64,000 nt of DNA from assembly GCA_964441745.1 (NCBI GenBank), contig CAYTYR010000003.1:35348-99347 (forward strand), read 5' to 3'. The notes beneath the pieces were generated by a model. The model worked only from the letters and a program-made list of their open reading frames with translations. It searched no databases and had not been told where the DNA came from. The stretch's first letter is position 1. Each line of letters starts with the position of its first letter. The DNA is from an uncultured Clostridia bacterium. Lineage in GTDB: Bacteria > CAYTYR01 > UBA6262. Below, piece after piece: positions 9,790 through 33,340 of this stretch. Both the position numbers and the translations under genes were made by a program.

Positions 9790-12504
9790 ATGACTAACTC
9801 TAAATCTAATAAAAACCCAATCTGGCAGTTTACTGACGACCAGGGAACTTTTATTATGCCTAATCCGCAAGCTCTCTCGCGGCTCTATTTCCCGTTATGT
9901 AATGAACAAGGATTGATGGCGGCAATTACTCCGGACCTGCACGGCGATATTAAAACGGGACAGAATTCCTTTCTGCTGCAACCAGTCACTGAATTTGACC
10001 TGCATAATATTAAATCCAAACGTGATTTCTGGCTTTCTATTGAAGGAGACGGAGCTTTTTCCCTGGCGACACTGGGGCGGGAAGACACCCAGCTGGAAGC
10101 TGGATTCCTATACCAGAAAATAATCCGGAAAATAGCCAAGGTAAACCTGGAAACAGAGATCACCAGCTTGGTGCCTGTCTCCGGCGAACCGCTGGAATTA
10201 ATGCGGGTCACTATTAAGAATACCGGCCGCAAACAACTGGCGATCACTCCGACCTGCGCTATCCCCATCTATGGCCGGTCCGCGGAAAATTTACGCGATC
10301 ATCGTCAGGTTACTTCCTTATTACATCGTATCCTGGTCAGCCGCTCGGCTATTACCGTCACGCCCACCATGAGTTTTGATGAGCGGGGCCATACCTTAAA
10401 TAAGATCTCCTATATCGTGCAAGCCTGTACCGGCGCCGGCGGCTTACCGGTCGGGGCTTTCCCGACCGTAGAAGAATTTATCGGCGAGGGCGGAGACTTG
10501 ACTCATCCGGGCAGTATCCTGCGCCAGGTTCCCCCTACCGCCCAGAACGGCGCCACCAGGGCTGGTAAGGAAGCTATGGGCGCTCTGCAGTTTGCCCAGG
10601 CTATTCTTAAACCAGGCAAAGAGCTCTCCTATATAGTGATCATGGGTATTACCTCTGATCCCAAAGATACCAAGCGCTGGTTAAATAAATTCGGTTCGGC
10701 TGAAAAATTCTCTAAAGCTTTAACCGCCAACCAAATTTATTGGCGGGAGCGATTGGGACAGATCACCTTTAACACAGATAATGATAAATTCAATAATTGG
10801 ACTAAATGGGTCATGCTGCAGCCGATACTGCGGAAGATCTGCGGTAATTCCTTTCTGCCCGACCATGACTACGGCCGGGGCGGCAGGGGCTGGCGGGACT
10901 TATGGCAGGATTTACTGGCCTTGATCCTGATCCATCCGGGAGAAGCCAGGAGTTCCCTGATCAATAATTTCGCCGGCGTCAGGATCGATGGGTCCAATGC
11001 CACTATTATTGGCCATAAGCCTGGAGAATTCATCGCGGACCGCAATAATATTTCCAGGGTCTGGATGGATCATGGCGCCTGGCCTTACCTGACTTTAGAA
11101 TTGTACTTACATCAGACCGGGGATTTTGAAATTCTCCTGGAAGAAACTTCCTATTTCCGTGATCCGCAGCTAATGCGCGGTAAACACAAAGATCTTGACT
11201 GGACTCCCCAGCACGGCCTGCAGTTGAAAACTAAAAAAGGAGAGCTTTACTGGGGCAGTATTATTGAGCACATCCTGGTGCAGCACCTGGTACAGTTCTT
11301 TAACGTGGGAGAACATAATCATATCCGGCTGGAAGGCGCGGACTGGAATGACGGGCTGGATCTGGCCAGCGAACGCGGCGAGAGTGTAGCCTTTACCGCC
11401 TTATATGCCGGCAACATGTTGAAAATCGCTGATTTACTGGAAATTCTGGGCCAGCGCAAGCAGATCACTACCCTTTCTTTAGCGACTGAAATCCTGATCC
11501 TGCTGGATACCATCGGCGCTGCTGCCAATTATAATGTGATCAGCGAAAAACATAAAACCCTGGACCATTATTTTGCCGCTGTTACCCCAGCCCTCGGCGG
11601 CAAGAAAAAAGAAGTCCCCCTGACCGCCATCATCAAGGACCTGCGCGCTAAAGCAGAATGGCTGCGCAAACATATTAATGAAAATGAGTGGCTCACCATT
11701 AAGGGAGGAATAAATTTCTTTAATGGTTATTATAACAATGACGGCCAGCGCGTAGAAGGAGAACAGGCCAAAGGCCTGCGCATGACTTTGCCTGGACAAG
11801 TATTTCCTATTATGGGACAAGTAGCTAAAAACGAGCAAATTCCCCAGATCTTTGCGGCGATCAAGAAATATTTACAAGACAAAAACTCAGGCGGATTCCG
11901 TCTTAATACTAATTTCCATGAATTGCAGCTTAATCTCGGACGGGCTTTTTCATTTTCCTATGGCGACAAGGAAAACGGCGCTTTCTTTAATCACATGTGC
12001 ATCATGCTGGCTTATAGCCTCTATACCCGCGGCTTTGCCAGGGAGGGCTATGAAGTACTTAGTTCCATCTACCACATGGCTTCAGAAACCGCGCAAAGCA
12101 AGATCTATCCCGGGATCCCGGAATATTTTAACTCTGCCGGCCGGGGCATGTATCACTACCTGACTGGATCCGCCAGCTGGTTTATCGTGACCCTGTTGGA
12201 AGAAGTTTTTGGCGTCAAAGGATATTTTGGCGATCTCCTGCTTAATCCCAAATTCTCCTTAACCCAGATCAACGAATTAGGCCAGATCAGTGTGACCACT
12301 ACCTTTGCCGAAAGAAGAATTAAGGTGACCTATAACAATGCCCGGAACCTGGAATATAATAAATATTCTATCCAGGCCATCACTATTAATGGTGAAAAAT
12401 CAGATTTTAGGCTGATCGGCAAGGCCGCGGCCCTGATCTCCCGCCCGGCTTTGCTCAAGCGCGCTGCCAAAAAGGTTAACCTGATTGAAGTAACCCTGGA
12501 ATAG
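9790..12504 (+). CDS. large (alpha/alpha)6-type glycoside hydrolase/phosphorylase, GH94/GH65-like
   Basis: about 905 aa from ATG 9790 with AAGGAG SD at 9774-9779; EGADWNDGLD motif resembles catalytic segment of cellobiose-phosphorylase-like enzymes; family assignment from memory only. Confidence 0.5.
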   Translation: MTNSKSNKNPIWQFTDDQGTFIMPNPQALSRLYFPLCNEQGLMAAITPDLHGDIKTGQNSFLLQPVTEFDLHNIKSKRDFWLSIEGDGAFSLATLGREDTQLEAGFLYQKIIRKIAKVNLETEITSLVPVSGEPLELMRVTIKNTGRKQLAITPTCAIPIYGRSAENLRDHRQVTSLLHRILVSRSAITVTPTMSFDERGHTLNKISYIVQACTGAGGLPVGAFPTVEEFIGEGGDLTHPGSILRQVPPTAQNGATRAGKEAMGALQFAQAILKPGKELSYIVIMGITSDPKDTKRWLNKFGSAEKFSKALTANQIYWRERLGQITFNTDNDKFNNWTKWVMLQPILRKICGNSFLPDHDYGRGGRGWRDLWQDLLALILIHPGEARSSLINNFAGVRIDGSNATIIGHKPGEFIADRNNISRVWMDHGAWPYLTLELYLHQTGDFEILLEETSYFRDPQLMRGKHKDLDWTPQHGLQLKTKKGELYWGSIIEHILVQHLVQFFNVGEHNHIRLEGADWNDGLDLASERGESVAFTALYAGNMLKIADLLEILGQRKQITTLSLATEILILLDTIGAAANYNVISEKHKTLDHYFAAVTPALGGKKKEVPLTAIIKDLRAKAEWLRKHINENEWLTIKGGINFFNGYYNNDGQRVEGEQAKGLRMTLPGQVFPIMGQVAKNEQIPQIFAAIKKYLQDKNSGGFRLNTNFHELQLNLGRAFSFSYGDKENGAFFNHMCIMLAYSLYTRGFAREGYEVLSSIYHMASETAQSKIYPGIPEYFNSAGRGMYHYLTGSASWFIVTLLEEVFGVKGYFGDLLLNPKFSLTQINELGQISVTTTFAERRIKVTYNNARNLEYNKYSIQAITINGEKSDFRLIGKAAALISRPALLKRAAKKVNLIEVTLE

Positions 12505-17884: not shown

Positions 17885-20535
17885 CTACAATAAATCTTCC
17901 ACTTTAGTCACCACTTTATACTCAACATCCTTAAATTCCTTAAAATGGGCTTCCCCGCACTTGATCTTCATTCTCTCTTCCGGATATAATTCATTCATTT
18001 CCCGGGTTGATTTCGTCTCCGCCACGAAATACAGCTTCTTCTCCCCTTTAAAGATCAAGGCCCAATCGGGGTTATAACTGCCCAAGGGCGTCTTTATCTT
18101 GAACCAGGCAGGGAGTTTTATGTAGAACTCAACATTATCGTTAGTCTCGCAATCACTGGCGAACCGTTTTTCCGGTTCGCTCATTGAATCTATAGAAATA
18201 TAATTAGCTATAGTTTTATCCTGCTTTGATACTTGATAGAGATTCTTTCTATATGCCTCCACCTCATTGTCTTCGAATAATCTCATCTCATATTCAATAC
18301 CATTGATCTTTTCATATTTTATCCCATCCACAATCATTTCGGCTAAGACATTCTTTATCTCCGCTGTCGCCATATCCATGAACATTTGAGGATTTCTCAA
18401 GATATCAACCAGCCGGCCAGAGCCTTTCAATATCCGCAAGATCGTTGATCGGGTTAATTCGGTTCTCGATTGTATATATCCCAGCACATCCGGGACATCA
18501 AACAAAGGATTTTCAACCTGAGTTATTCCCACACCCTTCTGCACTCCGGTTAATCCTTCTCTGACGACCTGCATTCCCGTTTTAACATACTTAATGATCG
18601 GCTTGCGCACCGCAGGCATATTCTTTATCTCTTTGACCGACGCTTCTATAAGCTTTTCAGTATCGAAATCAATATTATAAGTTGTTTTATGTTTTATTTT
18701 GTCCCATAGCTCCTTAAACTTCTCATCAAACTGGTAATTTTTTCTTAACCGCACTTTCACCCTTTCGTTCTTATTTCTTATCCTCTCCTTGAATTCGACT
18801 CCGCAATCCTCTTCCATTTCTTTCTGTAACTCTGCAGCGAATTCCTCGTAACTTTCATTGGCAATAACCGTCAACCTGTTAGTGTTCTTATCCTGGATCC
18901 TGTCGCCTTGCTGATCCACGCAAAGCCGCAATCCCCTGCCAATTTCCTGCCTCTTTTTCATCTCGGATCTCGTCTCGTTCAGAGTGCATATCTGGAAGAC
19001 ATTGGGGCTATCCCAGCCTTCTCTTAAAGCAGAATGACTGAATATAAATCTTAGAGGATTATTAATATCGAGAAGTCGTTCTTTATCCTTCATTATCAAC
19101 CTGTATGTATCATCATCTGCCAGGGTTTCCCTGGATTCAGAAGAATCTTTAAAGATCCCTTTTTTGTCCTGCGCGAAATAGCCGTTATGAACGACTTCAG
19201 ATTGAAAAGGGATAACTCCCTGATATTCTTTTTTCCCCGCTATTTCCTTGAATATTTCTTCAAACCAGAGGGCAAATTTTCCTTTCGCAGGGTTCCCCGC
19301 CTCATCATAACTGCGGTAGTTGGCTACCCTGTCTATAAAGATAAGCGAAAGGACTTTTATTCCTTTTTCTTTATATTTTTTCTCTTTCTGGAAGTGTTCT
19401 TCCACAGTCTTCCTGATCTGGACCTTCATAACTTCATCCAGCAGGCCGCCCCTCTGCTCTCCAACCGCCAGTATCTCTCCATTGGAGAGCTCAACCTTGC
19501 CTTCCCCCACGTCTATGGCATTAATAATATATCCTTCCCGGTAAAGCTCTCTTTTATTTGATTTTTCATACAAGTCATCTCCAACCTCAACATTCACTGT
19601 TTTCCTGATTATTCCATTCTCGCCAAGGGTATCCAAGCTTATTTTTGCCAGAGTCTTTGTTTTCTTGGCCTTAATATCTTCAACCTTCAGAAAAGCCTGA
19701 TTACTGCTATTCTCGGCAAAAATTGAATCAACTTCTATCTGTTTGACTAATCCCAGATCATAAGCTTTGACAGGATTAAGGCTGTAAACAAGGTTATACA
19801 GATTTGCGTGAGTAGCAGAATAGCGGAGAGTGCAGGCAGGATTCAGATTATCTATGGCCTTTTTCCTTATTTCCGTTTCCATGTTCTGAGGTTCATCAAC
19901 AATGACTATGGGATTCGTCGCCTGTATGAATTCTATCGGTTTCTTCCCGGTTAGTTTATCATTAAACTTATTAATAACATTCACGTCCTTGGCAAATGAA
20001 TCAATATTGATGACCAATATCTGAATGTTATTGTTTAGAGCGAAATTCCTTAAAAGGGATATTTTCCCCGGATCATACACGTTGAATGTCGCCGGTTGTT
20101 TCTCATACAAAGACTGGAAATGGTCATGGGTTATCTCAAGGTTCTTAATAACTCCTTCTCTTATGGCGATGCTGGGGACTACGATTATAAACTTTTTGAA
20201 TCCATAGCGTTTATTAAGCTCATATATGGTCCGCAAATATACATAAGTCTTTCCTGTACCTGTCTCCATTTCCACTGAGAAATTAAGACCTTGCAGGTAT
20301 TCCGCTTCTTTGAGCCCATTTTTCCGCTGAATTGCCTGAAGATTTGCTAATATTTGCGCTTCTTCCAAAACTATCCCATTTCCAACACCGTTTTCAGACA
20401 GCATATAGCCGCTATTGGGAGACAAAGAAAATTCATAATCGCTCTTATTTAAAGGCTGCCCCTCGAACAGGTCAACTATGGAGTTAATAGCGTCTATCTG
20501 ATACTGCTGGTTTGGATCAAAATGGAGTTTCATTA
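17885..20535 (-). CDS. res: Type III restriction enzyme, Res subunit (helicase-nuclease)
   Basis: Walker A METGTGKTYVY, motif II VIVDEPQNM, C-terminal nuclease region; real start is ATG at 20533-20535 (MKLHFDPNQQYQ) with AAGGA SD, not the upstream in-frame start at 20668. Confidence 0.9.
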
Positions 20536-20543
20536 TTATCCTT

Positions 20544-21275
20544 CTATTTAAACATCCGCAGATAATCTTTCTGTGTTTCCCTGACCATACGGGCAATAAG
20601 ATCAACAAAATCCCGATCGTTTCCGTCTCGCGCTGTTTCCAAAGAAGCGATATATTCCTGCCTGACAATGGGCGGGATTATGGTTATAACATAACCTTCC
20701 TGCATTAAAATAGTGTTCATCAGCAGCCGCGCCACTCTGCCGTTACCATCCAGGAAAGGATGAATAAAAACAAATTCTTTATGAGCCAATGCCGCGAACT
20801 CCACCGGGTGTTTTTGCCGGCGCAGTCTGCCTAATTTTGGCGGCAATCGTTTCATCAACACTGGTAATTCCGCCGGTAAGGGCAAGGGATACTTGGAACC
20901 TGTAATAATAGCTCTTACCTTCCGATACTCACCGGCATTTTCCCGATCTATTCGATAATAGAAAAGCCGGTGCAAATCTTTTATCCCGCGTTCGGTTACG
21001 GTTTTTTTCCTGGCCAGTTCATACATAAAGTCATAGGCTTCGCTATGCCCGGCTGCTTCGTAATGATCTCTTAATGGTTTACCGCCAATGGTAATACCGT
21101 CTTCAATAACCACCTTAGTCTCAGATTCTGTTAAGGAATTACCTTCAAGAGCGTTACTGGCATAGGTTAACCCTATGCGGAAATATTCTTTTGTTTGCTC
21201 TAACAAATGCTTATCCAAAGGCCGGCGCTTGTTTATCTCTGCCTGTAATTTATCTATTTCCTGATAAATAGTCAT
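20544..21275 (-). CDS. fic: Fic family protein
   Basis: 243 aa; canonical Fic motif HPFLDGNGRVARLL; AAGGAG SD 7 nt upstream; stop is 9 nt before the res ATG. Confidence 0.85.
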   Translation of the reverse strand: MTIYQEIDKLQAEINKRRPLDKHLLEQTKEYFRIGLTYASNALEGNSLTESETKVVIEDGITIGGKPLRDHYEAAGHSEAYDFMYELARKKTVTERGIKDLHRLFYYRIDRENAGEYRKVRAIITGSKYPLPLPAELPVLMKRLPPKLGRLRRQKHPVEFAALAHKEFVFIHPFLDGNGRVARLLMNTILMQEGYVITIIPPIVRQEYIASLETARDGNDRDFVDLIARMVRETQKDYLRMFK

Positions 21276-21288
21276 TACTTAGCTCCTT

Positions 21289-21336
21289 TCAAAGCTCTAT
21301 CTGATACTGCTGGTTTGGGTCAAAATGGAGTTTCAT
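21289..21336 (-). repeat. R2: duplicated copy of res 5' end forming a 15-codon mini-ORF (MKLHFDPNQQYQIEL)
   Basis: ATGAAACTCCATTTTGACCCAAACCAGCAGTATCAGATAG matches the real res start (20497-20535) with one mismatch by eye, then diverges into the Fic RBS. Confidence 0.7.
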
Positions 21337-21369: not shown

Positions 21370-21398
21370 TTGACATCATGGCGCCAATGCTGTAATAT
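21370..21398 (+). promoter_or_regulatory. consensus-like sigma70 promoter (TTGACA-17 bp-TAATAT)
   Basis: TTGACA at 21370-21375, 17-bp spacer, TAATAT at 21393-21398, in a 400-bp noncoding gap and pointing antisense to the RM operon. Confidence 0.5.
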
Positions 21399-21404
21399 TA
21401 TATT

Positions 21405-21550
21405 AGGCAATAATGCTAATAATTTTGGATCGGGGTGTCCCCGGTCGGTATTAATGAGCGGTAAGTCCGTTGTGAATTGTTCCAAGTGTTCCCTTCCATA
21501 GGTTGGCTATAGCTTGGACGCAACAAGTTCACAGGGCGCGCTCATTTTTT
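21405..21550 (+). ncRNA. candidate structured small RNA of about 145 nt, antisense to the Type III RM operon
   Basis: downstream of the promoter; local hairpin GATCGGGG-TGT-CCCCGGTC (21427-21446); long-range pairing AATGAGCG (21452-21459) with CGCTCATT (21538-21545) followed by T-run 21545-21550; only coding potential is a 15-aa ORF without SD. Confidence 0.35.
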
Positions 21551-21672
21551 ATTTTATGGCAATTTTGCCTTCATTACCCTTCCCATCACATGACCATCAC
21601 ATAAGATTTGCTTTATTTATCAACACATTTTGCCATTTAACAAATTCACACAAACTTACAATCACATAAACC

Positions 21673-23130
21673 TTAAGACCATATTGGTATATACTTAGCA
21701 TACTTTCTCGATTTATTCTCTGGATCAAAATCTTTAATTAATCTTGCTTTGATGGTATCAGCTATTATTCTTGAAACTATTGAGTAATTCTTTTCATCTA
21801 TTTTAAATCTTTCTCTTAGAGACTGATTGGTCATGTTACTATTTGAGACATATTTTAAGCAACAATGTTGATAACATGCTCTTATTTTATCATCTTTATC
21901 CATCTGCTTTAGAGTTTTATAAGAATACATAATAACCTTCAGAAAATTATCTCCCTCAATGAATTTCGGCGCAGGTAATTGATACTCCTCTACTTTATCA
22001 ATAACTTTATCAATACCGCTCCCTCTTTCTTCACAAATACCTGCCCTCCGCATAAAAGAAGCAACTTTCTCATTTCTTGACTGAGGATGATGGTCAATAA
22101 ACCTTAAAGTGCTAATTAACGGCTTTCCCGGATTAGTAATTTCAATTCTATCGTTAAATATTTCAATCATAGGCCCAGTGCCAATTTCATTAAAATCCTG
22201 ATGGATTAATGCATTGGCTACTAATTCTCTTATTGCTATTTCAGGATACATTTTTACTTCTTTTCTAAATGCTCTTCCTATTTCTTCATTTGCTTGCAAG
22301 TTATCATTAATATAATCAATTAATCCCTCAAATCCATTGGCATATCCTTTAGCCCCAATTTGTTCTTTTTTTGTATGTAATCTGTCATTACCCTTATATA
22401 TAATAACCCTGATTGCCTTCCTATTTAATCTTTCAAAATACGAAAGATTATTGGCTATCAAAATAGTGCCCAAATTAGTAATACTATGGCTATTTATTTC
22501 TTTAAGAATAAATCTTTCTCCTTCTAAATGTTTTAAAATAGCACTTTTATCAGCGGGTAAATTCGACTTCAATATCCTAAAATAACCTGGATAATCTAAT
22601 AATTCAAGTATTTTATCTTCATCCAATTCTTTCGCGGCTATGTCTTTTTCAAAACTATACGCTAGTGTTTTATTCCATATTTTTCTCGCTTTTTCTGGCA
22701 AGTCCTTTAATTTCTTTTTATAACTGCCAACTCTAATATACTCTGCCCCTTTAAAACCTACTGGCGTATTATGAGTAGCATTGATTTCAAACATTACAAC
22801 AGGAACCCCTTCATACTCAAATTCATTAATTCTGAAATCAATTCTCGGACTTAGCAATCTAATTAACCAATTTTCTAATTCCTCATTACCGTTTTTTGTT
22901 TGGCTAGGCTTAAAATCTGTACCAACTACTTTATGGGTCTGATCTTCAATGCCAAAAACAAAATATCCATAGCTTCTATTATGTAAGCAAGCTGAATTAG
23001 ATAAAGCAGATATATACTCCCCAATTTCATCAAGTGAGCAACTTAAATTTTGCTTGAATTCCACCCACTCTGTTTCCTTTGGCAGCATTATAAGTTCTTT
23101 TAATTTATTCTTAAGATCATCTGTGTTCAT
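21673..23130 (-). CDS. AlbA_2 (Schlafen-like) plus HATPase_c_4 domain protein, putative nucleic-acid-binding ATPase/regulator
   Basis: 485 aa; N-terminal ETEWVEFKQ...FVFGIEDQTHKVVG resembles AlbA_2; C-terminal ALIHQDF...IEIFNDRIEITNPG resembles HATPase_c_4; start overlaps R1 mini-ORF stop (ATGA). Confidence 0.65.
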   Translation of the reverse strand: MNTDDLKNKLKELIMLPKETEWVEFKQNLSCSLDEIGEYISALSNSACLHNRSYGYFVFGIEDQTHKVVGTDFKPSQTKNGNEELENWLIRLLSPRIDFRINEFEYEGVPVVMFEINATHNTPVGFKGAEYIRVGSYKKKLKDLPEKARKIWNKTLAYSFEKDIAAKELDEDKILELLDYPGYFRILKSNLPADKSAILKHLEGERFILKEINSHSITNLGTILIANNLSYFERLNRKAIRVIIYKGNDRLHTKKEQIGAKGYANGFEGLIDYINDNLQANEEIGRAFRKEVKMYPEIAIRELVANALIHQDFNEIGTGPMIEIFNDRIEITNPGKPLISTLRFIDHHPQSRNEKVASFMRRAGICEERGSGIDKVIDKVEEYQLPAPKFIEGDNFLKVIMYSYKTLKQMDKDDKIRACYQHCCLKYVSNSNMTNQSLRERFKIDEKNYSIVSRIIADTIKARLIKDFDPENKSRKYAKYIPIWS

Positions 23131-23200: not shown

Positions 23201-25084
23201 TTATATGGTTCTGAATTCTATTCCTGCGTCTTTCATTTGCAGGACGGTATTTGTTTTAAGCTTGTCATTGCCGGCAAATAAGGAATCCAGGCACAGGCAT
23301 TTGGCAGGCTTTTGTTTGACTATTTCCTTGATCAGCTTGCTGTTTACCTCAGATAGAATAACAACCATTTCGCCGTTATTTACCGTATAAATCGGCGCAC
23401 CGTCTATTTTTTCTTCTTTCGCGACCGTATTCAGGCCGTAACCGGTTTTCAGAAGTATTTCCCATAGCATATTGGTTTGTTTTGCCTTAGGTTTAACCGG
23501 ATACTCAAAAGCATCCATCTGCTTCTTAAGTTCAGCTTCCTCTGTTATGACATCATTTCGCCAAATCTTAAAATTGGATAGCTTCAGCTTATATACTTTG
23601 AATCCCAGGTCTATTTCTTTAGGCCGCTCTTCCTTGCCTATCTGTTTAATTGCTCTGCGAATTCTTTCTTTGGCGATATCTGCTATGGTTTTATACCCGG
23701 CCTTATAAGCTTCTGTTTCTGCTTCAGTTTTTTCCGGAAGCTGGACGCAGATAAACTTTCTATTCCCCCCATCTTCCTTGTTTAAATCTAAAACAGCATG
23801 AGCAATAGTTCCGGACCCAGCAAAAAAATCAAGAATAATATCATCAGATTCAATACCGGTTATTAATTCTATTAGTTTTTTCATTAATCTTACAGGTTTA
23901 GGTGTATCAAAATACGATTCACCATTAAAAATTTCTTTAATCTCTCGTTTTGACTCCTGATTATCTCCAACTATATCTCTTGTCCATAGAGTTATGGGAG
24001 TAACTGAAGTTTTTACCTCTGATAAAAATCTTTTTTGTCTCGGAATATTGTCTCCATACTCTCCAAACCATATACGATTATCTTTTAGAAGCTCACTAAA
24101 TTTTCTCTCACTAACAACCCAACATCTTCCTTTTGTCGGAAAAACTTTCCTTCCGCTTGGTAAAATTATGGGATATAGTTTTTCCTTGATTTCTGGCCCC
24201 ACCGTTAAATCACCTGATGACCAAGGGCCTCTTAAATCATTATCAGGATTATGATATCTTGAATTAGTTTCTTCTGTTCTTTTTAACCCCAGCACACCTA
24301 GTTTTTCTACATTTTTTGCATAAACTAAAATATAATCATGACTCGTTGAAAATGTGGTTTTTAAATTAATGGGCGAAAATGCTTTCTCCCAAATTATACT
24401 TGCCACAAAATTCTCTTCTCCGAATATCTCATTCATTAACAGCCTGAGATTATGGACTTCATTGTCATCTATGGAAACAAAAATAACTCCGTCTTCACAG
24501 AGCAGATTTCTGGCGAGGAACAGTCTTGGATACATCATGGAAAGCCAATTGGAATGGAAATGGCCATTTTCTTTGTTATTTTTTCTAAATAGCCCTTCCT
24601 TCAACAGATAGCCTTCTTCGTCCTTTTCCCCTATTCTTTTCAGATAGTCTTCTTTGGACTCGGAAAACCGGTCAGGATAGATAAAATTGTCATTGCCGGT
24701 ATTGTAGGGCGGATCGATATAGATCATCTTGATCTTGCCATAGTAGGCTTTCTGCAGGACTTTCAAGACTTCGAGGTTTTCCCCTTCAATGAATACATTG
24801 CCTGTTTTATCAAAATTGACGGATTCTTCAGGGCAAGGAGCCAATGTAGCAGTTGTAGGAGTTTGCAGGACCTTAAAAGCTTCGGACTTACCGGCCCAAT
24901 TAAGGACATATCGCTCATTCTCCAGGGATAGCTCTTCACCTAAAGTAAGCTTGAGCTTCTCCTGATCTATTTTCCCTTCGCTGAATACCTCTGGAAAAAG
25001 TTCTTTTAGTTTCTTTACTTTATCCTTTTTCACATCTACCGATTTTCCATCCATTCCTGTCTCCTCTATTACAAACTTATTCAA
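23201..25084 (-). CDS. mod: Type III R-M Mod subunit, N6-adenine DNA methyltransferase
   Basis: 627 aa; DPPY motif in MIYIDPPYNTG; AdoMet-binding DFFAGSGT; overlaps upstream Fic gene by 8 nt. Confidence 0.9.
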   Translation of the reverse strand: MNKFVIEETGMDGKSVDVKKDKVKKLKELFPEVFSEGKIDQEKLKLTLGEELSLENERYVLNWAGKSEAFKVLQTPTTATLAPCPEESVNFDKTGNVFIEGENLEVLKVLQKAYYGKIKMIYIDPPYNTGNDNFIYPDRFSESKEDYLKRIGEKDEEGYLLKEGLFRKNNKENGHFHSNWLSMMYPRLFLARNLLCEDGVIFVSIDDNEVHNLRLLMNEIFGEENFVASIIWEKAFSPINLKTTFSTSHDYILVYAKNVEKLGVLGLKRTEETNSRYHNPDNDLRGPWSSGDLTVGPEIKEKLYPIILPSGRKVFPTKGRCWVVSERKFSELLKDNRIWFGEYGDNIPRQKRFLSEVKTSVTPITLWTRDIVGDNQESKREIKEIFNGESYFDTPKPVRLMKKLIELITGIESDDIILDFFAGSGTIAHAVLDLNKEDGGNRKFICVQLPEKTEAETEAYKAGYKTIADIAKERIRRAIKQIGKEERPKEIDLGFKVYKLKLSNFKIWRNDVITEEAELKKQMDAFEYPVKPKAKQTNMLWEILLKTGYGLNTVAKEEKIDGAPIYTVNNGEMVVILSEVNSKLIKEIVKQKPAKCLCLDSLFAGNDKLKTNTVLQMKDAGIEFRTI

Positions 25085-26198
25085 AAAGTTTCACATAACC
25101 TTGATAAGCATATACTCGGTTTCTCCTTTGCCCCGTTAATTCTTTTAAAATATCTAATTTAAGCAGTTTTTTAGTCAAGACAATAGCATTGGGATTGGCT
25201 AATCCTGTTATTTGTTCAATATCTTTTATTCTTACCAAGGGCTTTTTATATAATGCGTTAAGCAAAACCATAGCTTTTTCTGAGCGGCCCATGCTTACCA
25301 CTTTCTCTATATCCCTCTGCCTCAGCTTATGGATTTTTCTGGCAGTTTCTACCGCTCTCTCGGCAGTGTCGATTACTCCTGATAGGAAAAATATAAGCCA
25401 TCCTTCAAGATCATCTTTCTCCCGAGCGGTATCAAGCTTATCATAGTAATCTTGCCTGAAACGCTTAAAAAACTCTGATATACACAAAAGTGGTTTATGG
25501 AGAATCTTCTGCTGGCATAAATAAAAAGTAATGAGCAATCTCCCAATTCTGCCGTTTCCATCCAGAAAAGGATGTATCGTTTCAAACTGGTAATGTATTA
25601 ATCCAATTTTAATAAGTACTGGCAAAGGCGCCACATCATGTATAAAACTCTCTAAATTTCCCATTAAGGCTAATACTTCATGCGCTGGGGGTGGAACAAA
25701 AGAGGCGTTTTGCAAAGTCACTCCCCCTATCCAATTCTGGGAGGTTCGAAATTCACCCGGATATTTTCCTTCTCCTCTGACTCCTTTTAGGAGAATGGCA
25801 TGTATTTCTTTAATGAGCCGCAAGGAAAGAGGAAGTGTTTCAAGGCGTTCCAGCCCGTAATCCATAGCTTTTATATAATTCAATATTTCTTCAACATCTT
25901 TATGTATTTCAAAATCTTCCAATTTTGCTTCTGCTTTGAGAACATCAGAAAAAGTAGCTTTGGTGCCTTCTATTTGACTGGAAAGAGCCGCCTCCTTCTT
26001 TATATACATAAAAATAAAGAAATTAACATCTGGCAATACATCAGCAATCCCATCCAATCGACCTAAAGCCAGATCCGCTTTCGAAAGAAGATCCTGCAAT
26101 AAATAATCTTGCTTAATATTAAAAGGCAAGCGGTTAGGTATAAAAGCCTTATATTGCAAATCTCCTTTTAACTGATTAACATAATTCCCTGTTCTCAT
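25077..26198 (-). CDS. fic: Fic family protein with C-terminal winged-helix-like domain
   Basis: 373 aa; Fic motif HPFLDGNGRIGRLL; first gene of the RM operon. Confidence 0.85.
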   Translation of the reverse strand: MRTGNYVNQLKGDLQYKAFIPNRLPFNIKQDYLLQDLLSKADLALGRLDGIADVLPDVNFFIFMYIKKEAALSSQIEGTKATFSDVLKAEAKLEDFEIHKDVEEILNYIKAMDYGLERLETLPLSLRLIKEIHAILLKGVRGEGKYPGEFRTSQNWIGGVTLQNASFVPPPAHEVLALMGNLESFIHDVAPLPVLIKIGLIHYQFETIHPFLDGNGRIGRLLITFYLCQQKILHKPLLCISEFFKRFRQDYYDKLDTAREKDDLEGWLIFFLSGVIDTAERAVETARKIHKLRQRDIEKVVSMGRSEKAMVLLNALYKKPLVRIKDIEQITGLANPNAIVLTKKLLKLDILKELTGQRRNRVYAYQGYVKLFE

Positions 26199-26204
26199 AA
26201 CACC

Positions 26205-26335
26205 TCAACCGTAGATAAGATTTTTAATAACTACGATATCATTATAATTCGTAGATAGTAATTTGTCAAGTTTTTTTAATCGTAGATTAGACTAAAATTA
26301 TCTATGATAATTATTAATATCATAGATTATAGCTA
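26205..26335 (-). promoter_or_regulatory. promoter/operator region of the Fic-mod operon with iterated YRTAGATW repeats
   Basis: at least six copies in both orientations (CGTAGATAAG, CTACGATATC, CGTAGATAGT, CGTAGATTAG, TATCTATGATA, CATAGATTAT) within about 130 bp. Confidence 0.45.
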
Positions 26336-29852: not shown

Positions 29853-30641
29853 TTATTTTTTCTTTTTTCTTTTCATTAACCGAGGGGTCCTGCCTGAACC
29901 GGCTTTTTCATCAAGCTCGATACCGAACATTTCGACTGCGTCCAAATCAGCAATCACCCGCCCGGTCTTTTTATCCGCTTTCTTCAGCATCTTCTTTGAT
30001 TTATCCCGCAAAGCTTCCGTAATCAGATCATCCATTTCGGTTTTACGCAGTAAGAAAAATAGCTTGGGATCATCATCCAATTTTACTCCCACCCCATAAA
30101 GCGTGGCCGCTACATGCTTGCACATACTTGCCCAGTCCGGGCAACTGCAGCTAAACTTAATCTCTTTAGGCGCCGGAAACAACCCCTTCCCTTTGGCGGT
30201 AAACAATTCCATAAGATCCTGGGGAAACCGGCCTTCAATAAGCTCTTGTAAAGATTCGATTTTCCCGGCGCATTTTTTCTTAATATCGTGCCAGGCTTCT
30301 TTGTTCAACGGATTTATTTTTACCGCTACTTTATAAGGATGCGGGCTGGTACCCTGCACCACTGCCGTTACTTCGCCCGGGTTTATTTTAAAATCCAAAA
30401 CAAAACCGTTTCTAACGTAACTGCGGCCCCGGCCGATCCGGTTTGAATAATCCGCATACTTTTCCAGGTTTGCATTCCAGGCTTTGCCCCACCAGGTATG
30501 GGCCAGTTTGTTCCCCTTTAAAATCAAAGGGTTGATCTGAGGATTTTTCTTCTTTAGCTGCGCTAATTTCCGCTGCGCCTTCGCGCATTTTTCTCCAACC
30601 GAAACATACCGGGGAAATCCTGAATAACCATAGTATCCCAT
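29853..30641 (-). CDS. SWIM zinc-finger protein
   Basis: 262 aa; CxC...CxH signature CSCPDWASMCKHV; 23 nt downstream of SNF2 helicase. Confidence 0.8.
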   Translation of the reverse strand: MGYYGYSGFPRYVSVGEKCAKAQRKLAQLKKKNPQINPLILKGNKLAHTWWGKAWNANLEKYADYSNRIGRGRSYVRNGFVLDFKINPGEVTAVVQGTSPHPYKVAVKINPLNKEAWHDIKKKCAGKIESLQELIEGRFPQDLMELFTAKGKGLFPAPKEIKFSCSCPDWASMCKHVAATLYGVGVKLDDDPKLFFLLRKTEMDDLITEALRDKSKKMLKKADKKTGRVIADLDAVEMFGIELDEKAGSGRTPRLMKRKKKK

Positions 30642-30664
30642 AAGCTTATCCTCCTGAAATTATT

Positions 30665-33340
30665 TTACAGCGACAGGGTAAACAGGTTCATTAATTTATC
30701 ATTGTTCATTTCGGTTATCCAGGCCTCGTTTGAGCTTTGGATGATTTCGTTTGACAAGTGTGTTTTTTCCTCAAGCATGGCGTCAATCTTTTCTTCCAGT
30801 GTGCCTCTGGTGATAAACTTATGCACCAGAACATTTTTTTTCTGGCCTATCCGGAAGGCTCGATCGGTGGCCTGGTTTTCCACTGCCGGATTCCACCACC
30901 GGTCAAAATGAATAACCTGGCTTGCCGCGGTCAGATTTAAACCGACTCCCCCGGCCTTAAGCGATAATACCATAAAAGGAACATATTCATGACTTTGAAA
31001 CTTTTCTACGATTTCCCGGCGTTTTTTAACCGGCGTACCGCCGTGGAGGACCAAACCCTGATGCTTAAAGATTGTTTCCAGATATTCCTTGAGCGGTCCG
31101 GTAATTTCCTTGAATTGCGTAAATACTAAAACCTTCTCTCTTTTTTCATAAATTGTTTCACAAATTTCGCGCAACCGCTGAAATTTGCCGCTGTCCGGTT
31201 CGCCATATTCATTCCTGCCCAAATATTGATCCGGATGATTGCAAAGCTGTTTAAACTTCATCAACGAAGCCAGAATCAGTCCTTTGCGCTTAATCCCCCC
31301 GGGTTCCTCTTCCAGCGCGGCTTTTAGTTCCGCCACAAGATTACCGTAAAGAACAACTTGTTTTTTGCTTAAATCCGCGTAAGTTTTCATCTCGACTTTC
31401 TCCGGCAGATCGGAAATAACAGACTTATCGGTTTTCAATCTTCTTAAAAGAAACGGCGCCGTAATTTTCTTCAGCCTGGCGTAACCGCCTGGATGGTCTT
31501 TTAATTCCTTAGAAAAATCGGAAAATTCTTTGCTGCTGCCGAGCATCCCGGGATTTAAAAAATCAAATAACGACCAAAGATCGCCTAAATTGTTTTCAAT
31601 CGGCGTGCCGGTCATAATTATTCTATTGTTGGCCTGCAAATTTTTAACTGCTTTGGTTTGTTTTGTGCCGGGATTTTTAATGGCTTGCGCTTCATCTAAA
31701 ATAACATAATTCCATTTGCGCGCTTTAAGCCAATCATACCTTTTGATTAAAGCATAAGTTGTTATAATAAGATCGTATTTGCCGCTAAAATCCTTGTCCC
31801 GACCGGCCTCGCCGCTATTTTTCTCAAACGAAGGATGAGCGATATAATACCTAATCTCCGGCGAAAATCGGCCTATTTCGCTAATCCAGTTAGAAATCAG
31901 GGAAGCGGGTATGATCAGCAGGCTGGCCGGATTTTGCCTGCTTGTTTTCAGCGTATTTAAGAAAGCCAACAGTTGTATTGTTTTCCCCAGCCCCATATCG
32001 TCGGCCAGACAGGCGCCAAACTGCAAAGAATGCAGGAAATAAAGCCAGTTCAACCCTTTCTGCTGGTACGGCCGAAGTTCTGCCAGAAAGTTTTTGGCGG
32101 GAGTGATTGAATCAATCAGCTCAGGTTTGCGCAGTTTTTCCACCACCCCTTTAAGCCATTCCCCGTTGGAAATACCGGCAGTCTCTCCATCGCTAACCCC
32201 CAGTTCTTTTTGTAAATTAAGCTGCAGATACATGGCCTCTTTTAAAGTTAAAGCGCCTTGTTCCATCAATTGTTGCGCTTTTTTATAGGCTTCCAGAGTT
32301 TTTTCGAGTTTTTCCGGGTCCACCTCCACCCATTTCCCCTTAATAAACGCCAGCCCGGCTGATTCATTTAAAAGTTTTCTTGCCTCCTCTTCCGACAGCT
32401 CGCTGTCGCCGCATAAAAGTTGTGTATTAAAATCAAGCAGCGAATCCTGGCCGAGAAACGACGGCGCTATATTGCCGATCCTGATATCCAGCTTTAGAAC
32501 ACTTGTTCTGTTCTTCCACCAGTTGGGAATCCGGCAAAGTATGCCGGATTTTTCATAGAGAGGAATTTCCTTTAAAATATCATAGGCGTCTTTGGCCGAC
32601 AAGGCCAGCGGATGAAATATTTCCCCGTTTTCAATAAGCCCGGCAATGATCCGGCTGTCTTTGGCGGCTAAATAAACAGTGGCCAAAAGTTCCAGCAGTT
32701 TTTTGTTGTTTTTGCCGTATTCGGTTAAGGCATACTTTAAGGGAATATGCTTGGCTTTCCCCTGCTCGTTTAAGCCGGTAGAATAGGTGGCTAAAAAAGC
32801 AAAAGGAAACTCCTCTTTTTTACTTTCCACCAAATGAAAATAAACCCGTCCGGCCAGATGAACATCAGCGCTGAAAGTTTTAATAAAATCAGCAACGGAG
32901 CCTCTATAAGTTTTCACTTTATGGCTAAAGGTAAGGTTTAGCTTTGACCAAATATCTTTCAGAAAAGACGGGTTTACATACTCTGCCCCAACCATAAATG
33001 GCCGCCGGGACAGAAAATCGTCAATCTCGTCAGTCGTTAAAACAAGCTCTACCCGCTCGCGCAAACCCTCAAGATCGGGTGTTTGCGCTAATTTTTTTAC
33101 ATACCTCTCCCCTAACTTTCTAAAAAATTCCAAACTTGCCGCTAACGGCACGGCTTGATTGCAAAATCCCAGCAACAGGAGAAAAGAGCCAAAGTCTTCC
33201 CGGTAGCTTTTGTATAATTCATTTTGCAGCAATTCCTGATCCTTGTTTAGCGGCTCTGCCCTGTCCTGCCATTCCAGTTCAATACTCTGACCCGGTAAAC
33301 AAACAACTGTTAATTCTTTATTCATTTTCTTTTTCCTCAT
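30665..33340 (-). CDS. SNF2-family helicase/ATPase
   Basis: 891 aa; motif I LADDMGLGKT, motif II DEAQAIKN, SNF2 block GTPIENNLGDLWSLFDF, C-terminal helicase domain. Confidence 0.85.
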   Translation of the reverse strand: MRKKKMNKELTVVCLPGQSIELEWQDRAEPLNKDQELLQNELYKSYREDFGSFLLLLGFCNQAVPLAASLEFFRKLGERYVKKLAQTPDLEGLRERVELVLTTDEIDDFLSRRPFMVGAEYVNPSFLKDIWSKLNLTFSHKVKTYRGSVADFIKTFSADVHLAGRVYFHLVESKKEEFPFAFLATYSTGLNEQGKAKHIPLKYALTEYGKNNKKLLELLATVYLAAKDSRIIAGLIENGEIFHPLALSAKDAYDILKEIPLYEKSGILCRIPNWWKNRTSVLKLDIRIGNIAPSFLGQDSLLDFNTQLLCGDSELSEEEARKLLNESAGLAFIKGKWVEVDPEKLEKTLEAYKKAQQLMEQGALTLKEAMYLQLNLQKELGVSDGETAGISNGEWLKGVVEKLRKPELIDSITPAKNFLAELRPYQQKGLNWLYFLHSLQFGACLADDMGLGKTIQLLAFLNTLKTSRQNPASLLIIPASLISNWISEIGRFSPEIRYYIAHPSFEKNSGEAGRDKDFSGKYDLIITTYALIKRYDWLKARKWNYVILDEAQAIKNPGTKQTKAVKNLQANNRIIMTGTPIENNLGDLWSLFDFLNPGMLGSSKEFSDFSKELKDHPGGYARLKKITAPFLLRRLKTDKSVISDLPEKVEMKTYADLSKKQVVLYGNLVAELKAALEEEPGGIKRKGLILASLMKFKQLCNHPDQYLGRNEYGEPDSGKFQRLREICETIYEKREKVLVFTQFKEITGPLKEYLETIFKHQGLVLHGGTPVKKRREIVEKFQSHEYVPFMVLSLKAGGVGLNLTAASQVIHFDRWWNPAVENQATDRAFRIGQKKNVLVHKFITRGTLEEKIDAMLEEKTHLSNEIIQSSNEAWITEMNNDKLMNLFTLSL

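What the first reader, a model, noticed from the sequence alone, without database searches (positions are those of the whole stretch)
21673..23130. AlbA_2 plus HATPase_c_4 protein embedded in the RM operon
This two-domain architecture (Schlafen-like nucleic-acid-binding N-terminus, GHKL-like C-terminus) is a recurrent but poorly characterised resident of defence islands. Here it is translationally coupled to a res-derived leader peptide inside a Type III operon, which argues for a function tied to restriction, perhaps as a sensor or regulator.
Basis: partly seen in the sequence, partly recalled or inferred. Interest (0 to 1): 0.5.

Follow-up and report, generated by a model that had tools for sequence, protein, structure and literature searches.

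The report
Schlafen-ATPase-HTH gene inside Type III restriction operon
The gene is a typical member of the commonest class of bacterial Schlafen defence proteins, inserted as cargo between the methylase and nuclease genes of a restriction system; comparison with relatives shows that it carries its own conserved DNA docking sites, which gives a testable clue to how this poorly understood class is controlled.

Summary
It lies between Type III mod and res. An 18-codon ORF that copies the res 5' end overlaps its start codon (ATGA).

It is a canonical small "Schlatpase-HTH" (pSlfn-HisKinase-HTH), a class described in 2026 and already linked to RM systems, so it is a new member of a known kind.

The "res leader" is a recombination scar. 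The window holds three copies of the res 5' end. In 52 of 63 related loci, mod and res are separated by at least 0.8 kb of defence cargo, most often a Schlatpase. Six of 54 cargo-bearing loci carry duplicated junction pieces.

New here: about 77% of close homologues are followed by tandem 11-nt-period repeats, usually at two helically phased sites in front of the next operon gene. The repeat sequence tracks residues 448-450 and 457 of the HTH recognition helix.

Likely mechanism (inferred): an ATP-dependent oligomeric RNase tethered to this operator. An orphan DUF3800-V RNA lies antisense just downstream.

The parts
26241..26269 (-). Promoter-like site (TTGACA-17-TATAAT, 12/12) in front of the first operon gene
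   Evidence: This is a consensus match only; expression was not tested.
25077..26198 (-). SoFic-like Fic protein (373 aa). First gene of the operon; its stop overlaps the mod start region.
   Evidence: Pfam Fic_N + Fic; PADLOC SoFic E 1.5e-119
23201..25084 (-). Type III Mod methyltransferase. The likely true start is ATG 25054, giving 617 aa.
   Evidence: N6_N4_Mtase E 5.1e-37; PADLOC MTase_III E 5.8e-216; the gene call in L001 gives 617 aa
23127..23180 (-). Stub A. An 18-codon ORF (MKLHFDPNQRYLSKEIK*) whose first ~38 nt copy the res 5' end. Its TGA overlaps the ATG of the Schlatpase gene. It marks the original mod-res junction, 20 nt after the mod stop.
   Evidence: (73% identity to the res start over 45 nt)
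21673..23130 (-). Schlatpase-HTH protein (485 aa). Domains: SLFN/AlbA_2 nuclease domain (E19-x4-E24-x-K26, S41ALSN45, D63), a small middle domain, a GHKL ATP-binding domain (E302/N306, N333-P-G335, G370-S-G372), and a winged HTH (412-482, recognition helix 450-461).
21645..21669 (-). Site 1. Operator-like repeat starting 3 nt after the stop codon (TTATGTGATTGTAAGTTTGTGTGAA); the second half-site is degenerate.
   Evidence: (D9)
21580..21604 (-). Site 2. A perfect tandem repeat with an 11-nt period (TTATGTGATGGTCATGTGATGGGAA), 65 nt from site 1. It matches the ATGTGA class predicted by helix residues N448-Y449-S450.
21451..21548 (+). DUF3800-V RNA motif (Rfam RF02964). Full-length match, antisense to the operon. 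No DUF3800 domain was found in any of the 13 window proteins scanned.
   Evidence: 71.5 bits against a gathering score of 37.4; Pfam scans of 13 window proteins
21370..21398 (+). Promoter-like site (TTGACA-17-TAATAT) about 50 nt upstream of the DUF3800-V RNA, on the same strand
   Evidence: consensus match only
21289..21336 (-). Stub B. A 16-codon ORF (MKLHFDPNQQYQIEL*) that is a 98% copy of the res 5' 45 nt, lying 13 nt before the Fic243 start.
   Evidence: (D1)
20544..21275 (-). Second Fic-domain cargo gene (243 aa, PADLOC PDC-S04 type)
17885..20533 (-). Type III Res (882 aa from ATG 20533): helicase plus C-terminal endonuclease domain
   Evidence: ResIII, RE_endonuc; PRK15483; REase_III E 2.1e-301

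Best explanation
The gene encodes a canonical small Schlatpase-HTH protein: a prokaryotic Schlafen nuclease domain, a GHKL ATP-binding domain and a C-terminal winged HTH.

Shown:
- It is one cargo module in an insertion hot-spot at the mod-res junction of a widespread Type III RM clade.
- The res-derived 'leader' in front of it, and a second one in front of the downstream Fic gene, are scars of cargo stacking by recombination within the conserved res 5' / mod 3' junction sequences. As a side effect they supply start codons and ATGA overlaps.
- The gene travels with its own cis element. This is two helically phased sites just after the stop codon, each a tandem repeat with an 11-nt period. Their sequence co-varies with residues 448-450 and 457 at and near the recognition helix.

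Inferred:
- The four HTH domains of that oligomer dock on the four half-sites in front of the next operon gene, usually the restriction or specificity subunit.
- Docking gates downstream expression and/or holds the nuclease in a DNA-bound resting state.
- On an infection- or restriction-related cue, the Schlafen domain cleaves tRNA or other RNA as an abortive-infection back-up to restriction.
For: Identity:
- Both Pfam domains score well above their cut-offs.
- In 81 to 126 homologues, E19, E24, K26, S41, N45, E302, N306, G335, G370 and G372 are invariant, and N333 is N in 79 of 81.
- The Ex4(E/D)xK catalytic motif (PMC13056530) and the E..N ATP/Mg pair (RzAgo E314/N318) are therefore intact.
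- The AlphaFold2 model has pLDDT 81.9 and a C-terminal wHTH.
- Foldseek matches 3LMM (E 5e-17), the SLFN11 N-domain (2.8e-4) and SLFN14 (2.9e-4).

Hot-spot:
- 52 of 63 related loci carry at least 0.8 kb between mod and res.
- The cargo is almost always co-directional. In 23 of 53 loci its last stop overlaps the res ATG.
- Cargo families are known or candidate defence genes, and Schlatpase is the largest.

Scars:
- Three res 5' copies occur in the window against 0 expected.
- Junction pieces lie inside the gap in 5 of 53 other loci, against 0 hits in 571 kb of control sequence (peptide-level search).
- L077 carries a res5'::mod3' fusion at a GATGC microhomology. L025 has three copies of the mod 3' end.

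Cis element:
- The tandem site occurs at 4.22 per kb in the 300 nt downstream, against 0.03 per kb inside the gene.
- 67 of 87 loci have at least one site. 26 of 28 loci with two or more sites use a single variant.
- A combinatorial code links residues 448/449/450/457 to bases 3/5/6 of the repeat. The site variant changes at least 12 times on a tree built from residues 1-405.
- Site-to-site distances cluster at multiples of about 11 nt. Rayleigh p is about 1e-6 for n=23, and about 3e-3 using unique distances only.
- Hold-out plasmids confirm the layout in 6 of 7 records and the code in 3-4 of them.

RM link:
- At least 19 of 47 well-flanked homologues sit inside RM-type operons.
- The upstream gene abuts or overlaps, and a spacer of about 100-125 nt carrying the sites precedes hsdR, DUF499 or hsdS.

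Literature:
- The SLFN domain acts as a tRNase effector, and GHKL ATP binding drives tetramerisation, in RzAgo.
- SLFN-ATPase-DNA-binding proteins are tightly associated with RM systems.
Against: - No biochemical step was tested here.
- The two HisKinase-type pSlfn constructs tested alone in E. coli gave no phage defence (PMC13056530).
- No sigma-70 promoter signal stands out in the spacer between the two sites: mean best score 6.7 against 6.6 in shuffles. The way downstream expression would be gated is therefore unknown.
- In the window, site 1 is half-degenerate. The next gene is not res but a later insert (DUF3800-V RNA, stub B, Fic243).
- Many close homologues are free-standing, so a link to restriction is not obligatory.
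- D63 is Asn in about 21% of the family.
- The covariation could be inflated by shared ancestry, although the combinatorial classes argue against that.
- One hold-out (L171) lacks the predicted site.
Confidence: 0.5

Rival explanations
1. Autonomous abortive-infection effector that merely hitch-hikes in a cargo hot-spot. It senses phage on its own. The HTH and its sites serve only to regulate its own cassette, and restriction plays no part in its function.
For: - The best homologues P0005 and P0009 and the plasmid copies H2, H4 and H5 are free-standing, next to integrases, toxin-antitoxin genes or conjugation genes.
- A few free-standing loci also carry a site upstream of the gene.
- The same gap holds many unrelated defence genes.
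- GC of 0.32 against about 0.45 in the flanks suggests recent import.
Against: - Placement is repeatedly inside RM operons of three different types, between subunits and co-directional, with the sites right before the next subunit gene.
- HisKinase-type pSlfns gave no defence when expressed alone.
Confidence: 0.3
2. Primarily a transcription factor: a controller (C-protein)-like regulator that times or limits expression of the downstream restriction module. The Schlafen and GHKL domains would act as a ligand- or ATP-sensing module rather than a nuclease.
For: - Databases name the family 'predicted HTH transcriptional regulator'.
- The operator architecture has four half-sites in helical phase, ending 15-20 nt before the hsdR or hsdS start.
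- The recognition helix co-varies with the site sequence.
Against: - The catalytic Ex4ExK, the SAxxN motif and the acidic third residue are conserved like an active enzyme.
- Related SLFN domains cleave tRNA.
- No promoter signal is found between the sites.
- The sites also follow free-standing copies that have no R gene downstream.
Confidence: 0.1
3. One reading: translation of the gene is functionally coupled to a res-derived leader so that its dose tracks Res, and the protein acts as a sensor or partner of the Mod/Res complex.
For: The ATGA overlap of the leader stop and the gene start is real. Many cargo genes overlap the res ATG in the same way.
Against: - The leader is a junction scar found in only 6 of 54 cargo-bearing loci, and it lies beside unrelated cargo.
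- L045 and L089 lack it.
- Stub A has no Shine-Dalgarno sequence of its own, whereas the gene has AAGGAA 7 nt upstream.
- Stub A has drifted to 73% identity.
Confidence: 0.07
4. Selfish mobile cassette. The HTH-bound repeats are cassette ends, and the protein promotes its own movement into RM junctions.
For: - The gene and its sites travel together across phyla.
- Some loci have same-orientation sites on both sides of the gene.
- A 25/25-nt identical site occurs in L041, where the protein is only 61-75% identical.
Against: - There is no recombinase-like domain.
- SLFN domains are RNases in every tested case.
- Junction scars are explained by homology at mod 3' and res 5', not by the repeats.
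- Most loci have sites on one side only.
Confidence: 0.03

Closest known systems
Small Schlatpase / pSlfn-HisKinase-HTH proteins (bioRxiv 10.64898/2026.05.29.728809; Nat Microbiol 2026, PMC13056530); structural-genomics example PDB 3LMM (DIP2311)
   Same: - Same Pfam pair, PF04326 + PF13749.
- Same catalytic and ATP motifs.
- C-terminal HTH, reported in more than 90% of Schlatpase tails.
- Defence-island context.
- Best fold match is 3LMM.
   Different: Nothing about the protein itself is unusual. The papers I read do not mention cognate DNA sites for the HTH or its fixed position in front of the next operon gene. The function of this most common class is still untested or negative.
RzAgo (SLFN-GHKL-pAgo) and CbCash (SLFN-Csx15)
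   Same: The SLFN domain is a tRNA-cleaving effector, kept off until oligomeric rearrangement. In RzAgo, ATP binding by the same GHKL domain drives tetramerisation.
   Different: Their sensors (the Argonaute core; the cA4-binding Csx15) are absent here. Here the only extra modules are a small middle domain and a wHTH, so the trigger is unknown.
PrrC / RloC anticodon nucleases embedded in Type I RM operons (my own knowledge, not tested here)
   Same: An RNA-targeting suicide nuclease encoded between RM subunit genes, proposed to back up restriction.
   Different: The folds are unrelated: PrrC has an ABC-type ATPase plus an anticodon-nuclease domain. No evidence here of latency through binding to the RM enzyme, or of activation by an anti-restriction factor.
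Controller (C) proteins of Type II RM systems (my own knowledge)
   Same: An HTH protein with a bipartite operator (two sites, four half-sites) placed to influence expression of the restriction gene.
   Different: C proteins are about 80-aa dimers that bind inverted repeats upstream of their own gene. Here a 485-aa enzyme-like protein has direct repeats downstream of its own gene. No effect on transcription has been shown.
Rlo-type cargo genes and hot-spots inside Type I hsd loci; defence islands
   Same: Variable defence cargo lies between conserved RM subunit genes. Cargo families overlap: Fic, YhcG/DUF1016, RhuM, KilA-N/Bro-N, AAA_21+DUF4276, GmrSD.
   Different: Here the host is a Type III mod-res junction. 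Stacked cargo is separated by duplicated mod 3' or res 5' pieces, some as in-frame res5'::mod3' fusions.

Membership tests
Schlatpase-HTH (pSlfn-HisKinase-HTH) | SLFN/AlbA_2 domain (PF04326) with the catalytic Ex4(E/D)xK motif | tested here: met
   76.9 bits against a cut-off of 25.3. E19-TEWV-E24-F-K26 is invariant in 45 + 81 homologues. The motif definition comes from PMC13056530.
Schlatpase-HTH (pSlfn-HisKinase-HTH) | GHKL/Bergerat ATP-binding domain (PF13749) with the Glu/Asn pair that holds the gamma-phosphate and Mg | tested here: met
   88.2 bits against a cut-off of 26. E302 and N306 are invariant and have the same spacing as RzAgo E314/N318. The residue mapping is by motif, not by superposition.
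Schlatpase-HTH (pSlfn-HisKinase-HTH) | C-terminal helix-turn-helix domain | tested here: met
   The AlphaFold2 model shows three helices plus a beta wing at 412-482, with pLDDT about 86-93. The gap homologue L048 scores HTH_24 in Pfam. No Pfam HTH hit for the window protein itself.
Schlatpase-HTH (pSlfn-HisKinase-HTH) | Schlafen-like fold of the N-terminal domain | tested here: met
   Foldseek matches 7fex (SLFN11 N-domain, E 2.8e-4) and 9nyy (SLFN14, E 2.9e-4). The full-length match is 3LMM, E 5e-17.
Schlatpase-HTH (pSlfn-HisKinase-HTH) | tRNA/RNA cleavage and ATP-driven oligomerisation | not testable with these tools
   Known only for RzAgo, Cash and two other pSlfns.
Type III restriction-modification operon | Mod (N6/N4 MTase of the Type III class) and Res (SF2 helicase plus endonuclease), co-directional in one operon | tested here: met
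   PADLOC MTase_III E 5.8e-216; REase_III E 2.1e-301; PRK15483. Both ORFs are intact.
Type III restriction-modification operon | mod and res adjacent or overlapping | tested here: not met
   They are 2.67 kb apart in the window. Only 9 of 63 related loci have them 5-43 nt apart.
PrrC/RloC-type RM-embedded anticodon nuclease | ABC-type ATPase N-domain plus PrrC/RloC nuclease domain | tested here: not met
   Pfam, NCBIfam and PADLOC give no such hit. Only the operon position resembles this family.
RM controller (C) protein | Small (~80 aa) HTH dimer binding palindromic C-boxes upstream of its own gene | tested here: not met
   The protein is 485 aa, and the sites are direct repeats downstream of the gene.
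DUF3800-V RNA (Rfam RF02964) | Covariance-model score above the gathering threshold | tested here: met
   71.5 bits against 37.4, model positions 1-96 of 96.
DUF3800-V RNA (Rfam RF02964) | A DUF3800-domain gene nearby (the basis of the motif's discovery, PMC5737381) | tested here: not met
   None of the 13 proteins scanned between 13.4 and 33.3 kb has DUF3800. The rest of the window was not scanned.

The most novel reading that the evidence does not exclude
Small Schlatpase-HTH proteins may be DNA-tethered guards of restriction systems. In this reading, an ATP-assembled tetramer sits on four in-phase half-sites between the modification/specificity genes and the next RM subunit gene. There it controls read-through or initiation into that gene. 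It is released or activated to cleave tRNA when restriction is overwhelmed or inhibited. That would make it a PrrC-like fail-safe that arose independently and is shared by Type I, Type III and DUF1156/DUF499 systems. Its DNA specificity would be readable from a simple recognition-helix code.
Probability: 0.15. Interest if true: 0.75.

Novelty: new member of a known kind. Interest (0 to 1): 0.5.

Why it matters
pSlfn-HisKinase(-HTH), or 'Schlatpase', proteins are the most abundant bacterial Schlafen architecture: 53% of pSlfns in one survey and about 60,000 proteins in another. No trigger or regulatory logic is known for them, and the two HisKinase-type constructs tested alone were inactive.

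This locus and its relatives give concrete handles:
- a defined DNA target for the HTH, with a predictive residue-to-base code;
- a phased four-half-site layout that fits the tetramer seen in RzAgo;
- a conserved position in front of the next RM subunit gene.

These turn 'RM-associated, mechanism unknown' into experiments that can be done with one purified protein and a 100-bp fragment.

Separately, the mod-res junction of this Type III clade behaves as a cargo hot-spot with recognisable junction-duplication scars. That is useful for mining new defence genes and for understanding how cargo is stacked.

Tried and rejected
- **DUF3800-V RNA as a partner of the gene:** rejected. There was no Rfam hit in 20 other Schlatpase loci. 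A single-sequence covariance model found none in 83 sources totalling 1.38 Mb. There was no blastn match in plasmids.
- **A sigma-70 promoter between the two sites:** no enrichment over shuffles on either strand. The window scan found no minus-strand promoter or terminator between 21290 and 21673.
- **The res stub as a universal feature of Schlatpase cargo:** rejected. It occurs in only 6 of 54 cargo-bearing loci, and beside other cargo types.
- **A mod 3' remnant after stubs A and B in the window:** not convincing by eye, unlike L077.
- **NCBIfam:** no model hits the protein. PADLOC gives only weak partial hits, to PDC-S50 and Argonaute-associated PNTD models.
- **Organism identification:** the exact-sequence look-up returned no names. 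The window is a metagenome-assembled contig.
- **Pseudogene or artefact:** rejected. The ORF is intact, aligns end to end with hundreds of homologues at 60-69% identity, and keeps all motifs.
- **One hold-out plasmid (L171):** carries N-Y-P but has no ATGTAA repeat. It has a different repeated motif (CCAATAAGGG), so the code is not universal.
Full report
**1. What is in the window**

The finding's coordinates match a 485-aa ORF on the minus strand, 23130..21673. It lies in a run of co-directional genes:

- a promoter-like site at 26269-26241;
- a SoFic-like Fic protein, 26198..25077;
- a Type III Mod, 25084/25054..23201;
- the ORF in question;
- a second Fic protein, 21275..20544;
- a Type III Res, 20533..17885.

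The assignments rest on these scores:

| Protein | Evidence |
|---|---|
| Mod | N6_N4_Mtase; PADLOC MTase_III E 5.8e-216 |
| Res | ResIII + RE_endonuc; PRK15483; REase_III E 2.1e-301 |
| Fic373 | PADLOC SoFic E 1.5e-119 |
| Fic243 | PADLOC PDC-S04 |

The island has lower GC than its flanks. The Schlatpase gene lies in the 0.32 bin and the mod / Fic373 bins are 0.37-0.38, against about 0.44-0.47 in the flanks. The flanking genes look like housekeeping genes: MnmG, a PPDK_N protein and an RRM protein. The same contig was assembled from two sequencing runs of a metagenome. The organism could not be named.

**2. Checking the observation**

- Both Pfam domains are far above their curated cut-offs: SLFN_AlbA_2 at 76.9 bits, HATPase_c_4 at 88.2 bits.
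- The AlphaFold2 model has mean pLDDT 81.9. It adds a small middle domain and a C-terminal winged HTH at 412-482, with the recognition helix at 450-461.
- The best structural matches are the structural-genomics protein 3LMM (E 5e-17), then the SLFN11 N-domain (2.8e-4) and SLFN14 (2.9e-4).
- The 'res-derived leader' is real. After the mod stop come 20 nt, then ATGAAGCTCCATTTTGATCCGAACCAGC..., which encodes MKLHFDPNQRYLSKEIK*. Its TGA overlaps the ATG of the gene.
- A second copy (MKLHFDPNQQYQIEL*, 98% identical to the res start over 45 nt) precedes Fic243. The third copy is the real res start.
- Three matches were found against none in 100 shuffles.

**3. What kind of protein it is**

The family is very large and moves between phyla. 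A capped search returned 8000 hits, and the best were 60-69% identical across Bacillota, Bacteroidota, Planctomycetota and others.

Conservation in the family:

- Invariant: E19, E21, E24, K26, S41, N45 and G60 in the SLFN domain; E302, N306, H310, G335, E367, E368, G370 and G372 in the GHKL domain.
- N333 is N in 79 of 81 homologues.
- D63 is Asp in 75% of homologues and Asn in 21%.

The 2026 literature describes this class directly:

- PMC13056530 defines the catalytic motif Ex4(E/D)xK. It lists pSlfn-HisKinase (34%) and pSlfn-HisKinase-HTH (19.2%) as the commonest architectures. Only two of seven tested pSlfns protected, and neither was a HisKinase type.
- bioRxiv 10.64898/2026.05.29.728809 names the SLFN + PF13749 pair 'Schlatpase'. 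It counts 60,692 such proteins, most of them small with a C-terminal HTH. [quoted passage not shown]
- PMC13462974 shows tRNA cleavage by a CRISPR-associated Schlafen. It notes that SLFN-ATPase-DNA-binding proteins are tightly associated with RM, BREX and type I CRISPR systems, with the activation mechanism unknown.

The window protein is therefore a canonical member of a known class.

**4. The mod-res junction is a cargo hot-spot, and the stubs are scars**

I fetched 80 loci that encode Res relatives at 59-70% identity, from many phyla.

- 63 loci have both genes on the contig. Only 9 have mod and res 5-43 nt apart, and 52 have at least 0.8 kb between them.
- The cargo is almost always co-directional and tightly packed. 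In 23 of 53 loci its last stop overlaps the res ATG.
- Clustering and Pfam give the cargo families below. Schlatpase-like proteins are the largest family, with 16 ORFs in 14 loci.
  - AAA_21/AAA_15 + DUF4276
  - PHP-AAA_21 paired with a short Schlatpase-like protein
  - Bro-N / KilA-N
  - Eco57I-like methylases
  - Fic
  - YhcG/DUF1016
  - Dcm + Vsr
  - GmrSD
  - a pAgo-like protein
  - AAA+ with an S8 protease
  - RhuM
  - DarT-Macro
- Copies of the locus's own junction pieces occur inside the gap in 5 of 53 loci (L018, L025, L048, L056, L077). None occurs in 571 kb of control sequence. A peptide-level search gave 4 stubs against 0 in 945 kb.
- L077 is the clearest case. A Schlatpase-type cargo gene (390 aa) is followed by res nt 1-38. 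That piece is fused at a GATGC microhomology to 32 nt identical to the locus's own mod 3' end. An AAA_21 + DUF4276 module and then res follow.
- L025 has three copies of the mod 3' end, each directly followed by a cargo start.
- In L048, res stubs flank the Schlatpase on both sides.

These layouts are what single-crossover integration or unequal exchange between alleles with different cargo would leave behind, using the conserved junction as homology. That mechanism is my inference.

Two observations are consistent with a conserved junction:

- The first 12 res codons have raised third-position identity: 0.53 against 0.35-0.39 elsewhere.
- The last 27 Mod codons are an island of conservation.

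Reading the window this way, stub A marks the old mod-res junction. The Schlatpase cassette went in behind it. Fic243 was added later, since stub B and res differ at only 1 of 45 nt.

The stub therefore says nothing specific about Schlatpase function. L045 and L089 have mod followed directly by a Schlatpase, without a stub.

**5. A conserved cis element travels with the gene**

While comparing downstream regions I found a 25/25-nt match, twice, between the window and L041. The proteins there are only 61-75% identical. I then fetched 80 metagenomic loci with 52-66% identical homologues.

- Right after the stop codon of most homologues lies a tandem direct repeat with an 11-nt period, for example cTTATGTGACGGTCATGTGACtg. 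A second such site lies 65-132 nt further on.
- Density is 4.22 sites per kb in the 300 nt downstream on the coding strand. Elsewhere it is 0.32 per kb on the opposite strand, 0.03 per kb inside the gene and 0.20 per kb upstream.
- 67 of 87 loci have at least one site. 26 of 28 loci with two or more sites use a single variant.
- The variant tracks the recognition helix:

| Repeat variant | Residues 448-449-450 | Residue 457 |
|---|---|---|
| ATGTGA | N-Y-S | A / S / G |
| ATGTAA | N-Y-P | S / N / R |
| ATGTGC | D-Y-P | R |
| ATTTGA | N-(S/A)-A | mostly K / R (also G, A, S) |
| ATTTGC | D-(T/A)-P | R |

- The code is combinatorial. Residue 449 pairs with base 3, and residue 448 pairs with base 6.
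- The site variant changes at least 12 times on a tree built from residues 1-405.
- Site-to-site distances fall at multiples of about 11 nt: 65-67, 76-78, 84-87, 96-98, 109-111, 118 and 132. Rayleigh p is about 1e-6 for n=23, and about 3e-3 using unique values only.
- Seven annotated plasmids served as a hold-out. Six keep the two-site layout. The code holds for L167 (N-Y-S, ATGTGA), for L173 and L169 (N-S-A, ATTTGA) and approximately for L172. L168 and L170 show new variants. L171 does not fit.
- The window has site 1 at 21669..21645, with a degenerate second half. Site 2 is at 21604..21580 and is perfect. They are 65 nt apart, and the sequence matches the N-Y-S prediction.

I did not see these sites mentioned in the papers I read. 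I did not search the literature exhaustively for them.

**6. Position within operons**

- Among close homologues with ORFs on both sides, at least 19 of 47 have RM-type neighbours.
- The usual order is HsdS, DUF1156 methylase or Mod, overlapping or abutting the Schlatpase start. A spacer of about 100-125 nt carrying the two sites follows, then HsdR or DUF499.
- Two annotated plasmids are variants of the same pattern:
  - Desulfosarcina BuS5: DUF1156, Schlatpase, PLD-like anti-phage protein.
  - Aliarcobacter: hsdR, hsdM, Schlatpase, sites, hsdS.
- In L161 and L154, site 2 ends 15-20 nt before the hsdR ATG.
- Many copies are free-standing. Some of these also carry a site upstream of the gene.
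- No sigma-70-like promoter stands out between the sites.

**7. How it most likely works**

Shown: the domain set, the intact motifs, the cargo status, the scars and the cis element with its covariation.

Inferred from RzAgo and other Schlafens: ATP-driven oligomerisation and RNA (tRNA) cleavage as an abortive-infection effector.

Inferred from the anatomy: the four HTH domains of an oligomer dock on four in-phase half-sites in front of the next operon gene. That docking either gates the gene or holds the enzyme in a DNA-bound resting state. This gives a physical link to the RM operon.

What releases or activates the enzyme is unknown. A restriction-related cue is attractive, and the Cash authors suggest one, but it is unproven. 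A purely autonomous effector remains a serious rival.

**8. Other element in the gap**

Between site 2 and stub B, on the opposite strand, lies a full-length DUF3800-V RNA motif at 21451-21548 (71.5 bits against 37.4). A promoter-like site lies about 50 nt upstream of it, and a U-rich tail follows it. It is the only Rfam hit in the 64 kb. No DUF3800 domain was found in any of the 13 window proteins scanned. It does not accompany other Schlatpase or Res loci. DUF3800-associated RNAs have no known function (PMC5737381).

**9. Verdict**

The protein is a new member of a known kind. The added value lies in the operator-like sites with their recognition code and helical phasing, and in the hot-spot and scar picture of the Type III junction. 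Interest 0.5.

Noticed in passing
window 21451-21548 (+), with a promoter-like site at 21370-21398 (+): A full-length DUF3800-V RNA motif (Rfam RF02964, 71.5 bits against 37.4) lies antisense inside the RM operon, between the Schlatpase sites and stub B. It is the only Rfam hit in the 64 kb. None of the 13 window proteins scanned has a DUF3800 domain. The motif was not found in 20 + 83 other sources.
   Followed up: partly
window 21580-21604 and 21645-21669 (-); loci L003, L006, L041, L045, L087-L173: Tandem 11-nt-period repeats lie right after the stop codon of Schlatpase-HTH genes, usually at two sites spaced by multiples of about 11 nt. Their sequence co-varies with recognition-helix residues 448-450 and 457. 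The papers I read do not mention them.
   Followed up: yes
L007-L086 (mod-res gaps); L018 7047-7080; L025 3224-3279, 4635-4692, 5932-6002; L048 6064 and 7718; L056 8156-8203; L077 1758-1826: The mod-res junction of this Type III clade is a defence-cargo hot-spot: 52 of 63 loci carry at least 0.8 kb of cargo. Stacked cargo is separated by duplicated mod 3' or res 5' pieces. L077 has an in-frame res5'::mod3' fusion at a GATGC microhomology.
   Followed up: yes
L012, L013, L015, L025, L027, L037 (mod-res gaps): A recurrent two-gene cargo module: a protein of about 870 aa with PHP and AAA_21 domains, followed by a shorter (384-447 aa) Schlatpase-like protein whose stop often overlaps the res ATG. 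It looks like a separate candidate system.
   Followed up: no
window 25077-26198 (-) and 20544-21275 (-): Two different Fic-domain genes sit in one Type III operon. A SoFic-like gene lies upstream of mod with an overlapping stop/start. A PDC-S04-type gene lies just before res. Fic cargo also occurs in L025 and L074, and a Fic hit lies upstream of mod in L048.
   Followed up: partly
window 20498-20533 (first 12 codons of res) and the last ~27 codons of mod (23201-23284): Across 77 relatives the first 12 res codons have third-position identity 0.53, against 0.35-0.39 in the rest of the gene. The Mod C-terminal tail is a conserved island. This points to nucleotide-level constraint at the junction, from translation initiation or from recombination homology.
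   Followed up: partly
L041 7929-9381: In an Elusimicrobia MAG, the closest in-operon relative of the window gene appears broken into pieces (frameshifted). It lies next to a second, intact Schlatpase of another subfamily, yet both downstream sites are intact. A possible very short MKLH stub lies at 9899.
   Followed up: no
L171 4444-4560 (Hymenobacter plasmid): This homologue has an N-Y-P helix but no ATGTAA repeats. Instead CCAATAAGGG(T/C)CA occurs twice about 85 nt apart, which may be a different operator type.
   Followed up: no
window 29853-33340 (-): An SNF2-family helicase (891 aa, with DUF3670) is preceded by a 262-aa protein with a Cys/His-rich motif and no Pfam hit. It may be an SNF2 + SWIM-like pair. 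It was not examined.
   Followed up: no
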